Of a DNA stretch of 205 nucleotides, positions 1 to 205 are shown one piece after another. Made by a program: the position numbers and the translations under genes. The stretch lies in assembly GCF_003334335.1 (NCBI RefSeq), contig NZ_QOWQ01000245.1. One strand, written 5' to 3'. Position 1 is the first letter of the stretch. Each line of letters begins with the position of its first letter. Origin of the DNA: Escherichia coli (GTDB lineage Bacteria; Pseudomonadota; Gammaproteobacteria; Enterobacterales; Enterobacteriaceae). The notes under the pieces were generated by a model, which was not told where the DNA came from, searched no databases, and was given only the letters and a program-made list of their open reading frames with translations.

Positions 1-205
1 GACCCGGGCGGACCGCCGGGGCCGAAAGGTGACACCGGCCCACGTGGAGAGGCCGGACCACCCGGACCACAGGGTCCCGCAGGCCCTCGGGGAGAAACCG
101 GCCCCGCAGGTCCTGCGGGTCCCGCAGGCAGTGTTCCGGATGCCAGCACATCACAGAAAGGTGTTGTACAGCTGAGCAGCGATACCAACAGCGATGATGA
201 AACAA
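1..205 (+). CDS. Internal fragment of a phage/prophage tail-fibre protein with a collagen-like stalk (Stf-like); partial at both ends
   Basis: Frame +1 (codons starting at nt 1) has no stop codon across the window and translates to [68 protein letters not shown]. The other two forward frames contain stops (TGA at 30-32 and 195-197 in frame 3; TGA at 173-175 in frame 2). The product is biologically coherent: a strict Gly-X-Y repeat followed by a KGxVQLSS-type motif that I recognise from phage side-tail-fibre proteins. No start or stop codon is present, so the gene boundaries lie outside the window. Recognition of the motif is from memory, not a database search. Confidence 0.8.
72..129. repeat. 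Exact 13-nt direct repeat gggtcccgcaggc (72-84 and 117-129), 45 nt apart and in frame; the core cccgcagg also occurs a third time at 103-110
   Basis: Direct string comparison: nt 72-84 and nt 117-129 are both gggtcccgcaggc. The 8-mer cccgcagg is found at 76-83, 103-110 and 121-128, encoding Pro-Ala-Gly each time. The 45-nt offset is a multiple of 9. Confidence 0.9.
103..119. repeat. Inverted repeat / near-perfect palindrome cccgcagg-t-cctgcggg (8-nt arms, 1-nt spacer)
   Basis: The reverse complement of nt 103-110 (cccgcagg) is cctgcggg, which is exactly nt 112-119. It arises from encoding Pro-Ala-Gly-Pro-Ala-Gly with alternating synonymous codons (ccc gca ggt cct gcg ggt). Its existence is certain; a functional role is not demonstrated. 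Confidence 0.85.
136..204 (+). other. Coding segment for a conserved phage tail-fibre motif immediately after the collagen-like stalk ([23 protein letters not shown])
   Basis: The translated segment fits the pattern ASTxxKGxVQLSSxTNSxxET, which I recall as the conserved motif of lambdoid side-tail-fibre (Stf-like) proteins, commonly ...ASTTxKGIVQLSSATNSTSET.... This window carries a variant with V for I and the acidic stretch DTNSDDE in place of ATNSTSE. G+C falls to about 49% over nt 131-205 by hand count. Confidence 0.65.

What the first reader, a model, noticed from the sequence alone, without database searches (positions are those of the whole stretch)
103..119. Near-perfect palindrome embedded in the Gly-Pro-Ala coding run
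cccgcagg-t-cctgcggg is a 17-nt inverted repeat that could form a stable GC-rich hairpin in mRNA or single-stranded DNA (a stem of about 7 bp once a realistic loop is allowed). In a coding region this could cause ribosome or polymerase pausing, or act as a recombination or cleavage hotspot. It is more simply explained as a by-product of alternating synonymous codons for P-A-G.
Basis: seen in the sequence. Interest (0 to 1): 0.2.

Follow-up and report, generated by a model that had tools for sequence, protein, structure and literature searches.

The report
Palindrome forced by Pro-Ala-Gly codons
The palindrome is real, but it is an ordinary side effect of the DNA that encodes three consecutive Pro-Ala-Gly units in the collagen-like stalk of an E. 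coli prophage tail fibre, and nothing suggests it has a function of its own.

Summary
Window 103-119 is CCCGCAGG-t-CCTGCGGG, with perfect 8-nt arms. A second overlapping copy lies at 112-128, and a third CCCGCAGG at 76-83.

The window is nt 562-766 of a 478-aa lambdoid prophage side tail fibre gene of the known collagen-like "EPclC" type, the P-EibA ORF-401 homologue. The palindrome encodes P222-G230 (PAGPAGPAG), at the end of the first collagen domain.

CCN-GCN-GGN is its own reverse complement. The peptide therefore fixes 6 of the 8 arm pairs, and only two wobble pairs are free.

- Synonymous recoding of the gene gives a perfect palindrome with arms of at least 8 nt somewhere in the window 15.5% of the time, and at this site 4%.
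- The hairpin (-15.3 kcal/mol) is no more stable than dinucleotide shuffles (z -0.56) or synonymous recodings (mean -16.7).
- Of 387 in-frame PAGPAG sites in 117 viral genes, 14 are perfect palindromes against 16.9 ± 3.8 expected.
- Close alleles carry the palindrome by descent. One E. coli allele has a synonymous C→T at position 105 that breaks it. More distant orthologues lack the PAG run altogether.

Low interest.

The parts
1..129 (+). Frame-1 coding sequence for the last 43 residues (D188-G230) of the first collagen-like (Gly-X-Y) domain of a prophage side tail fibre protein
   Evidence: Translation. The full gene is L001 5440-6876, and the window starts at gene offset 561, in frame. Pfam Collagen PF01391 matches residues 135-190 and 191-230. 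PHROG 366, tail fiber, E = 3e-113.
1..21 (+). Codes D-P-G-G-P-P-G, the single conserved break of the Gly-X-Y register (G-X-P-G-G-P-X-G) typical of the first collagen domain in these proteins
   Evidence: The motif is described in PMC3368898.
103..119 (.). The reported palindrome CCCGCAGG-t-CCTGCGGG, covering codons P222 A223 G224 P225 A226 and the first two bases of G227
   Evidence: The wobble pairs are 105:117 (C:G) and 108:114 (A:T). The other six pairs are fixed by the CC/GC/GG codon bases.
112..128 (.). Second, overlapping perfect palindrome CCTGCGGG-t-CCCGCAGG, covering codons P225 to G230
   Evidence: (I4).
73..83 (+). Third copy of the direct repeat GGTCCCGCAGG (G-P-A-G). Its CCCGCAGG (76-83) pairs with 112-119 in the whole-window fold. 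The 63-nt in-frame deletion relative to P-EibA and L003 has its junction here (77/78).
   Evidence: (D2, I1).
130..205 (+). Linker (SVPDAST) and the start of the Phage_fiber_2 repeat ([18 protein letters not shown]...) that separates the two collagen domains
   Evidence: Pfam PF03406 matches residues 236-277, E = 7.8e-16, which corresponds to window 145 onward.

Best explanation
The palindrome is a by-product of coding with no function of its own.

The window lies inside the gene for a trimeric, collagen-like side tail fibre of a lambdoid (P-Eib-like) E. coli prophage. At the end of the first collagen domain the protein has three consecutive Pro-Ala-Gly units, which are the X-Y-Gly positions of GPA triplets, one of the commonest triplets in these proteins.

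The codon pattern CCN GCN GGN reads as itself on the opposite strand. Any DNA encoding PAGPAG is therefore already 75% palindromic: 6 of 8 arm positions, or 5 of the 7 stem pairs. Here the two free wobble pairs also happen to match, because a CCT GCG unit sits between two copies of CCC GCA. That gives two overlapping perfect palindromes.

Shown here: the gene identity, the reading frame, the forced complementarity, and the lack of excess stability, enrichment or conservation. Inferred: that the hairpin has no effect on translation, transcription or replication.
For: **Gene identity**
- The window is 100% identical to E. coli JE86-ST05 NZ_AP022815 1234952-1235156, inside a CDS annotated as 'prophage tail fiber N-terminal domain-containing protein'. 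The CDS lies downstream of gpJ and lom and upstream of a tail fibre assembly-like gene and a YadA-like gene.
- It is 94% identical to orf-401 of prophage P-EibA.
- Pfam finds phage_tail_N, Collagen x4 and Phage_fiber_2. PHROG 366, tail fiber.
- This architecture is EPclC in PMC3368898, where GPA makes up 12% of triplets.

**Forced complementarity**
- The pattern CCNGCNGGNCCNGCNGGNCCNGCNGG matched both strands at every site.
- The minus-strand frame also reads PAGPAGPAG.

**Chance, given the peptide**
- Synonymous shuffles give a palindrome with arms >= 8 in 15.5% of recoded windows, and at this site in 4%.
- The analytic value is 5.3%.

**Stability**
- RNA 95-130 folds at -15.3 kcal/mol, z = -0.56 against dinucleotide shuffles.
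- Synonymous recodings average -16.7, and 64% of them fold at least as well.
- The whole-window z of -3.27 falls to -0.85 or -0.14 under codon-preserving nulls.
- In the whole-window fold the local hairpin is not formed; 112-119 pairs with 76-83.

**No enrichment across lineages**
- Of 387 PAGPAG sites in 117 viral collagen-like ORFs, 14 are perfect against 16.9 ± 3.8 expected.
- With one site per ORF, 5 of 114 are perfect against 5.6 ± 2.2 expected.

**No conservation beyond descent**
- Alleles about 95% identical carry the same bases.
- JNEC-KY176 has a synonymous C105T.
- L007 and L008 lack the left arm.
- Orthologues at 67-69% identity have only one PAG.
- Other PAGPAG sites in the family are mostly non-palindromic: 13 of 16 distinct 18-mers.

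**Other scans**
- No Rfam family reached its threshold.
- The terminator scan found nothing at this site.
Against: - Having both overlapping palindromes perfect is about 0.5% likely for a given PAGPAGPAG under family-wide codon usage. By my arithmetic from the frequencies this rises to about 4% if the flanking units are duplicates.
- As single-stranded DNA, 95-130 folds somewhat better than dinucleotide shuffles (z = -2.05). That null ignores the codon constraint.
- One relative (L007/L008) has a 45-nt in-frame deletion whose junction, CAGGTCC, is the centre of the palindrome.
- The close alleles show almost no substitutions, so nucleotide-level selection cannot be tested directly at the orthologous site.
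- No experiment was possible.
Confidence: 0.93

Rival explanations
1. The GC-rich hairpin acts in the mRNA, slowing ribosomes or RNA polymerase at the end of the first collagen domain, for example to help the trimer register or fold.
For: A 7-bp G+C-rich stem of -12 to -15 kcal/mol is predicted. It sits exactly at the boundary between the collagen domain and Pf2. The only substitution seen (C105T) keeps an RNA pair (U-G).
Against: The hairpin is not more stable than dinucleotide shuffles (z -0.56), and 64% of synonymous recodings fold at least as well. In the fold of the whole window the local hairpin is displaced by other pairings. More distant orthologues with the same domain boundary have no PAG run. 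Perfect palindromes are not enriched at PAGPAG sites in 117 viral genes. There is no Rfam match. From general knowledge, translating ribosomes unwind stems of this size routinely.
Confidence: 0.03
2. The palindrome acts in DNA. A hairpin on the lagging-strand template promotes slippage or breakage, making this a hotspot for the in-frame length changes seen in the collagen stalk.
For: Near-identical alleles differ almost only by in-frame indels of 63, 45, 9 and 9 nt within or next to the window. One junction (L007/L008) lies at CAGGTCC, the centre of the palindrome. The single-stranded DNA fold has z = -2.05 against dinucleotide shuffles.
Against: Every indel junction lies in a short direct repeat (GGTCC[C/G]GCAGG, CAGGTCC, or tandem 9-mers), which explains it by slipped mispairing or homologous exchange without any hairpin. 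The 63-nt and both 9-nt indels are not at the palindrome. From general knowledge, 8-bp arms are far below the lengths known to extrude cruciforms or attract SbcCD. Across viral genes, wobble complementarity at PAGPAG is not enriched and is if anything depleted.
Confidence: 0.04
3. The perfect match of the wobble positions was produced by templated (quasi-palindrome) mutation. Because the peptide already forces a 75% palindrome, intrastrand template switching during replication copied one arm onto the other and 'perfected' it through silent changes.
For: The sequence has the form A-t-A'-t-A with all four wobble pairs matched. A second PAGPAG site in the same gene (GPAGPAGKTG in the second collagen domain, L001 6466) has CCG GCA GGT CCT GCG GGT, which is one base away from perfect.
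Against: If this process were common, perfect palindromes should be over-represented at PAGPAG sites. They are not: 14 against 16.9 ± 3.8, and 5 against 5.6 ± 2.2. Single wobble pairs are complementary less often than expected: 38 and 37 against about 64 ± 6.4. Adjacent units tend to reuse the same codon, as plain tandem duplication predicts.
Confidence: 0.02

Closest known systems
EPclC-type prophage collagen-like side tail fibre proteins of E. coli (type example: ORF-401 of prophage P-EibA; Ghosh et al. 2012, PMC3368898)
   Same: The domain order is the same: PfN (PF08400), collagen, Pf2 (PF03406), collagen, then a C-terminus that is not PfC. The length is the same (478 against 479 aa). The G-X-P-G-G-P-X-G break is present. 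The position after J and lom and before an Eib/YadA-like gene is the same. The window is 94% identical at nucleotide level. The PAGPAGPAG bases are identical.
   Different: The window's allele lacks 63 nt (21 codons) in the first collagen domain and a 9-nt ASV duplication after it. These are allelic length differences, not differences of kind.
Bacteriophage lambda side tail fibre Stf (orf-401/orf-314)
   Same: It shares the N-terminal PfN domain and the Pf2 repeat, and the gene lies in the same place in the tail module (PMC3368898).
   Different: To my knowledge lambda Stf has no collagen-like domains. This was not tested here.
Quasi-palindrome mutation hotspots in E. coli (template-switch model; recalled from general knowledge, not looked up here)
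   Same: A short inverted repeat with a 1-3 nt spacer, in which silent changes could perfect the repeat.
   Different: There is no statistical sign of perfection at PAGPAG sites across 117 viral genes.
Regulatory GC-rich hairpins (intrinsic terminators, pause or attenuator stems)
   Same: A G+C-rich 7-bp stem.
   Different: It lies inside an ORF and has no U-tract: the following sequence is GTCCCGCAGGC, and the terminator scan found nothing there. It is not more stable than synonymous recodings. It is not conserved in more distant orthologues. No Rfam family matches.

Membership tests
EPclC-type prophage collagen-like side tail fibre (Stf / ORF-401 family) | N-terminal Prophage tail fibre N-terminal domain (PfN, PF08400) | tested here: met
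   Residues 1-134, E = 2.1e-42.
EPclC-type prophage collagen-like side tail fibre (Stf / ORF-401 family) | Two (Gly-X-Y)n collagen domains separated by a Phage_fiber_2 (Pf2, PF03406) repeat | tested here: met
   Collagen PF01391 at residues 135-230 and 288-385; Pf2 at 236-277, E = 7.8e-16. The window spans the first boundary.
EPclC-type prophage collagen-like side tail fibre (Stf / ORF-401 family) | Single G-X-P-G-G-P-X-G interruption in the first collagen domain | tested here: met
   GDPGGPPG lies at residues 187-194, which is window 1-21 for DPGGPPG. The motif is as described in PMC3368898.
EPclC-type prophage collagen-like side tail fibre (Stf / ORF-401 family) | C-terminal region unrelated to PfC (PF06820); PCoil often absent | tested here: met
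   There is no PF06820 hit, and the collagen domain starts directly after residue 134.
EPclC-type prophage collagen-like side tail fibre (Stf / ORF-401 family) | Located in a lambdoid tail module downstream of J and lom | tested here: met
   The order is gpJ, Ail/Lom, this gene, a DUF4376 tail-fibre-assembly-like gene, then a YadA-like gene. P-EibA has the same order.
EPclC-type prophage collagen-like side tail fibre (Stf / ORF-401 family) | Forms a trimer with a collagen triple helix | not testable with these tools
   This was shown experimentally only for EPclA and EPclB (PMC3368898 abstract).
Functional nucleic-acid hairpin (cis-acting RNA or DNA structure) | More stable than expected for the composition and for the encoded peptide | tested here: not met
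   z = -0.56 against dinucleotide shuffles. 64% of synonymous recodings fold at least as well.
Functional nucleic-acid hairpin (cis-acting RNA or DNA structure) | Conserved in homologues at nucleotide level, with compensating changes | tested here: not met
   The palindrome is identical only in alleles about 95% identical, by descent. The one substitution seen is one-sided (C105T). L007/L008 lack the left arm. The 67-69% orthologues lack the PAG run. No compensatory change was seen.
Functional nucleic-acid hairpin (cis-acting RNA or DNA structure) | Match to a described RNA family | tested here: not met
   The best Rfam scores are 16-18 bits, against gathering scores of 46-70.
Intrinsic terminator | G+C-rich stem followed by a run of U | tested here: not met
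   The scan found no site at window 103-128, which is L001 6103-6128. The 3' flank is GTCCCGCAGGC.
Quasi-palindrome templated-mutation hotspot | Excess of perfected palindromes where the peptide forces a near-palindrome | tested here: not met
   14 observed against 16.9 ± 3.8 expected, and 5 against 5.6 ± 2.2.
Cruciform-forming or SbcCD-sensitive palindrome | Long perfect arms (tens of bp or more) | tested here: not met
   The arms are 8 bp. The length requirement is recalled from general knowledge and was not tested.

The most novel reading that the evidence does not exclude
Runs of Pro-Ala-Gly in collagen-like tail fibre genes are forced near-palindromes. They might act as hairpin-assisted slippage sites that help generate the in-frame stalk-length variants seen among alleles. 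One deletion junction does coincide with the palindrome centre. A related reading is that the observed shortfall of wobble complementarity at such sites across phages reflects selection against these hairpins.
Probability: 0.05. Interest if true: 0.3.

Novelty: already known. Interest (0 to 1): 0.05.

Why it matters
It matters little in itself. The gene class (collagen-like prophage side tail fibres) and this allele are already annotated and described.

The useful lesson is about method. Gly-Pro-Ala-rich coding DNA is intrinsically self-complementary. Palindromes, strongly negative folding z-scores against composition-only shuffles, and long antisense open frames in such regions are therefore expected artefacts. 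They should be judged against nulls that preserve the codons.

Tried and rejected
- **Rfam scan of the window.** It returned only sub-threshold miRNA and enterovirus CRE noise.
- **Promoter and terminator scan of the gene.** It found nothing at the palindrome.
- **Search for divergent orthologues that keep PAGPAG at the same position.** Close alleles are identical by descent, and alleles at 67-69% identity have only one PAG. A clean test of synonymous change at the orthologous site was therefore not possible beyond the single JNEC-KY176 substitution.
- **L062.** It has [11 protein letters not shown] at the end of a collagen block with palindrome-breaking codons. However, it is a different fibre protein with no Pf2 after the block, so it counts only as an independent instance and not as an orthologue.
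- **Antisense ORFs (361 aa and 151 aa).** I considered them as possible genes and rejected them. They are a consequence of the stop-free, self-complementary GXY codon pattern, and the plus-strand frame has strong Pfam and PHROG support.
- **Whole-window folding z of -3.27.** I rejected it as evidence of structure once the codon-preserving null gave -0.85 and -0.14.
- **Not run.** Scans of genome contigs and metagenome contigs, structure prediction and protein database searches were not used. The identity of the gene was already unambiguous, and the question concerned nucleotide-level structure.

Full report

Yes. Window 103-110 is CCCGCAGG, 111 is T, and 112-119 is CCTGCGGG. The arms are perfect reverse complements. 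"Near-perfect" applies only because the central base cannot pair.

- A second perfect 8+1+8 palindrome overlaps the first at 112-128.
- The arm CCCGCAGG occurs three times in the window (76-83, 103-110, 121-128), as part of the direct repeat GG[T/C]CCCGCAGG.
- A longer imperfect inverted repeat, 72-92 / 103-123, exists.

**2. What is the surrounding sequence?**

Frame +1 is open across the window. It reads [68 protein letters not shown]. That is a collagen-like Gly-X-Y run followed by a phage tail fibre repeat.

The window is 100% identical to five complete E. coli chromosomes, including JE86-ST05 at NZ_AP022815 1234952-1235156. There it lies inside a 478-aa CDS annotated as "prophage tail fiber N-terminal domain-containing protein". 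That CDS sits in a lambdoid tail module: C40 family peptidase, tail assembly protein, gpJ, Ail/Lom, this gene, a DUF4376 tail-fibre-assembly-like gene, then a YadA-like gene.

Pfam finds the following:
- phage_tail_N at residues 1-134, E = 2e-42
- Collagen at 135-230 and 288-385
- Phage_fiber_2 at 236-277, E = 8e-16

PHROGs gives tail fiber family 366 at E = 3e-113. Prophage P-EibA has the same gene, orf-401, in the same context, at 94% identity with indels.

Ghosh et al. 2012 (PMC3368898) describe exactly this architecture as EPclC, with P-EibA ORF-401 as their first listed example. They note three features that apply here:
- the conserved G-X-P-G-G-P-X-G break, which is window 1-21;
- collagen domains whose lengths vary in multiples of three residues;
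- GPA as 12% of all triplets.

The window starts at gene nt 562, in frame. The palindromes therefore encode P222-G230, PAGPAGPAG, the last three triplets of the first collagen domain.

**3. Why is it palindromic?**

Pro-Ala-Gly is CCN GCN GGN. The reverse complement of that pattern is NCC NGC NGG, which is the same pattern shifted by one base. Three results confirm this:
- The degenerate 26-mer for PAGPAGPAG matched both strands at every site in the viral collection.
- The minus-strand frame of the window also reads PAGPAGPAG.
- Long stop-free antisense frames run through the collagen region.

Within the 8-nt arms, six pairs join fixed codon bases (CC with GG, GC with GC). Only 105:117 and 108:114 join third positions. 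Here those pairs are C:G and A:T. For the second palindrome, 114:126 is T:A and 117:123 is G:C.

The arrangement is one CCT GCG unit between two CCC GCA units.

**4. Is it more than chance?**

| Null model | P(at least one perfect palindrome, arms >= 8, spacer <= 3) |
|---|---|
| Dinucleotide shuffles of the window | 0.018 (0.002 for two) |
| Synonymous-codon shuffles within the gene | 0.155 to 0.163 somewhere in the window; 0.035 to 0.04 at this site |

The dinucleotide null ignores the coding constraint.

From third-position usage in 127 related collagen runs, one palindrome given PAGPAG has probability 0.053. Both palindromes given PAGPAGPAG have probability 0.005. If the two flanking CCC GCA units are duplicates, as the threefold direct repeat suggests, the second figure rises to about 0.04. 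That is my arithmetic from the frequencies (0.221 x 0.169).

For a feature picked out after the fact, none of this is remarkable.

**5. Stability**

- RNA 95-130 folds at -15.3 kcal/mol (7-bp stem, centroid -12.2), z = -0.56, and 55 of 200 dinucleotide shuffles fold at least as well.
- Synonymous recodings of the same peptide average -16.7 ± 3.8, and 64% of them fold at least as well as the real sequence.
- As DNA the z is -2.05 against dinucleotide shuffles, again without the codon constraint.
- The whole window has z = -3.27 against dinucleotide shuffles. This falls to -0.85 or -0.14 under the two codon-preserving nulls.
- In the whole-window fold the local hairpin does not form. Instead 112-119 pairs with 76-83, and 102-110 pairs with 85-92.

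**6. Homologues**

- **Close alleles.** IMG/VR prophage contigs and P-EibA and 38 of 39 E. coli genomes carry identical bases. They are about 95% identical overall and differ almost only by indels, so this is identity by descent and carries no information about selection.
- **The one substitution found.** In JNEC-KY176 it is a synonymous C→T at window 105 (CCC→CCT). It keeps PAGPAG but breaks the Watson-Crick palindrome. In RNA the pair would become U-G.
- **L007 and L008.** They carry a 45-nt in-frame deletion that replaces the left arm. The peptide becomes [11 protein letters not shown], and only the second palindrome survives.
- **More distant orthologues.** L207 to L209, at 67-69% identity over 80 aa, have GEPGPAGSAANVADATTAQKGIVQLS, with a single PAG. 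Even the peptide is not conserved.
- **Other PAGPAG sites in the family.** Only 3 of 16 distinct 18-mers are perfect, and two of those are the two halves of this same block. A second PAGPAG site in the same gene, in the second collagen domain, reads CCG GCA GGT CCT GCG GGT and is imperfect.

**7. A broader test**

If nucleotide structure, or palindrome-perfecting templated mutation, mattered at such sites, then wobble positions should match more often than codon usage predicts.

I scanned viral contigs for the PAGPAGPAG pattern without conditioning on wobble bases. This gave 117 collagen-like ORFs with 387 in-frame PAGPAG sites.

| Measure | Observed | Expected from within-ORF synonymous shuffles |
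|---|---|---|
| Perfect palindromes, all sites | 14 | 16.9 ± 3.8 |
| Perfect palindromes, one site per ORF | 5 of 114 | 5.6 ± 2.2 |
| Complementary inner and outer wobble pairs, all sites | 38 and 37 | about 64 ± 6.4 |
| Outer wobble pair, one site per ORF | 9 | 20.1 ± 3.7 |
| Same codon reused in adjacent units, Pro and Ala | 73 and 75 of 114 | 56 ± 4.5 |

There is no enrichment of perfect palindromes. Single wobble pairs are complementary less often than expected. Reuse of the same codon in adjacent units goes together with this, as plain tandem duplication would give. Whether that fully explains the shortfall is not settled.

**8. Other scans**

No Rfam family came near its threshold. No terminator-like site lies at the palindrome, and the 3' flank has no T run.

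**9. Indels**

Alignment with P-EibA, L003 and L007 shows four in-frame length differences:
- 63 nt are missing from the window between the direct repeats GGTCCGGCAGG and GGTCCCGCAGG, with the junction at window 77/78.
- 45 nt are missing from L007 between two CAGGTCC repeats.
- A 9-nt CAGTGTCGC duplication is absent from the window after position 129.
- The 9-mer CCGGACCAC at 53-70 varies in copy number.

All of these lie at short direct repeats, which fits the length variation reported in PMC3368898. One junction coincides with the palindrome centre. That is a single case, and the direct repeat is a sufficient explanation for it.

**10. Verdict**

The palindrome is a real string. It is best explained as a by-product of encoding PAGPAGPAG in a known type of prophage collagen-like tail fibre gene (confidence about 0.93). 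The functional readings remain formally possible but have no support:
- mRNA pause hairpin, 0.03
- DNA slippage hotspot, 0.04
- templated perfection, 0.02

Interest is 0.05, and the gene class is already known.

Noticed in passing
window 77/78, 53-70 and 129/130; L002, L003, L007 (alignment A1): Alleles that are otherwise nearly identical differ by in-frame indels at short direct repeats. 63 nt are absent from the window between GGTCC[G/C]GCAGG repeats. 45 nt are absent from L007/L008 between CAGGTCC repeats. A 9-nt CAGTGTCGC duplication (an extra Ala-Ser-Val) is absent from the window. The 9-mer CCGGACCAC varies in copy number.
   Followed up: partly
L083-L202 (117 viral collagen-like ORFs): At in-frame PAGPAG sites, the Pro and Ala wobble bases that would pair in a hairpin are complementary less often than within-ORF synonymous shuffles predict: 38 and 37 against about 64 ± 6.4 over all sites, and 9 against 20.1 ± 3.7 for the outer pair with one site per ORF. 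Adjacent units reuse the same codon more than expected: 73-75 of 114 against 56 ± 4.5. It is unclear whether this is only a tandem-duplication effect or also selection against hairpins.
   Followed up: partly
L001 5543-6628 (-) and 5733-6188 (-); window minus strand: Antisense open frames of 361 aa and 151 aa run through the collagen-like region, and the window's minus strand also reads PAGPAGPAG. These are most likely artefacts of the stop-free, self-complementary GXY codon pattern and not genes.
   Followed up: partly
window 1-205: The RNA fold of the whole window has z = -3.27 against dinucleotide shuffles, which looks significant. The value falls to -0.85 or -0.14 when the null keeps the peptide and codon pool. 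Composition-only nulls mislead in Gly-Pro-rich coding DNA.
   Followed up: yes
L001 7833-9296 (+), 10703-10790 (-), 11217-12205 (+): Two genes downstream of the fibre gene lies a YadA-like family gene, in the position that the immunoglobulin-binding eibA gene occupies in P-EibA. A tRNA-Ser and a frameshifted hyaA follow it, possibly marking the prophage boundary.
   Followed up: no
E. coli complete genomes (searches of window 1-205 and 88-145): This allele of the collagen segment is rare. It occurs in 39 of 5,426 genomes, all on chromosomes. Carriers often hold several copies, up to 7 places per genome, which suggests several prophages share the segment.
   Followed up: no
window 1-21: The window opens on DPGGPPG, the single conserved break of the Gly-X-Y register (G-X-P-G-G-P-X-G) that Ghosh et al. 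report for the first collagen domain of two-domain proteins of this kind.
   Followed up: yes
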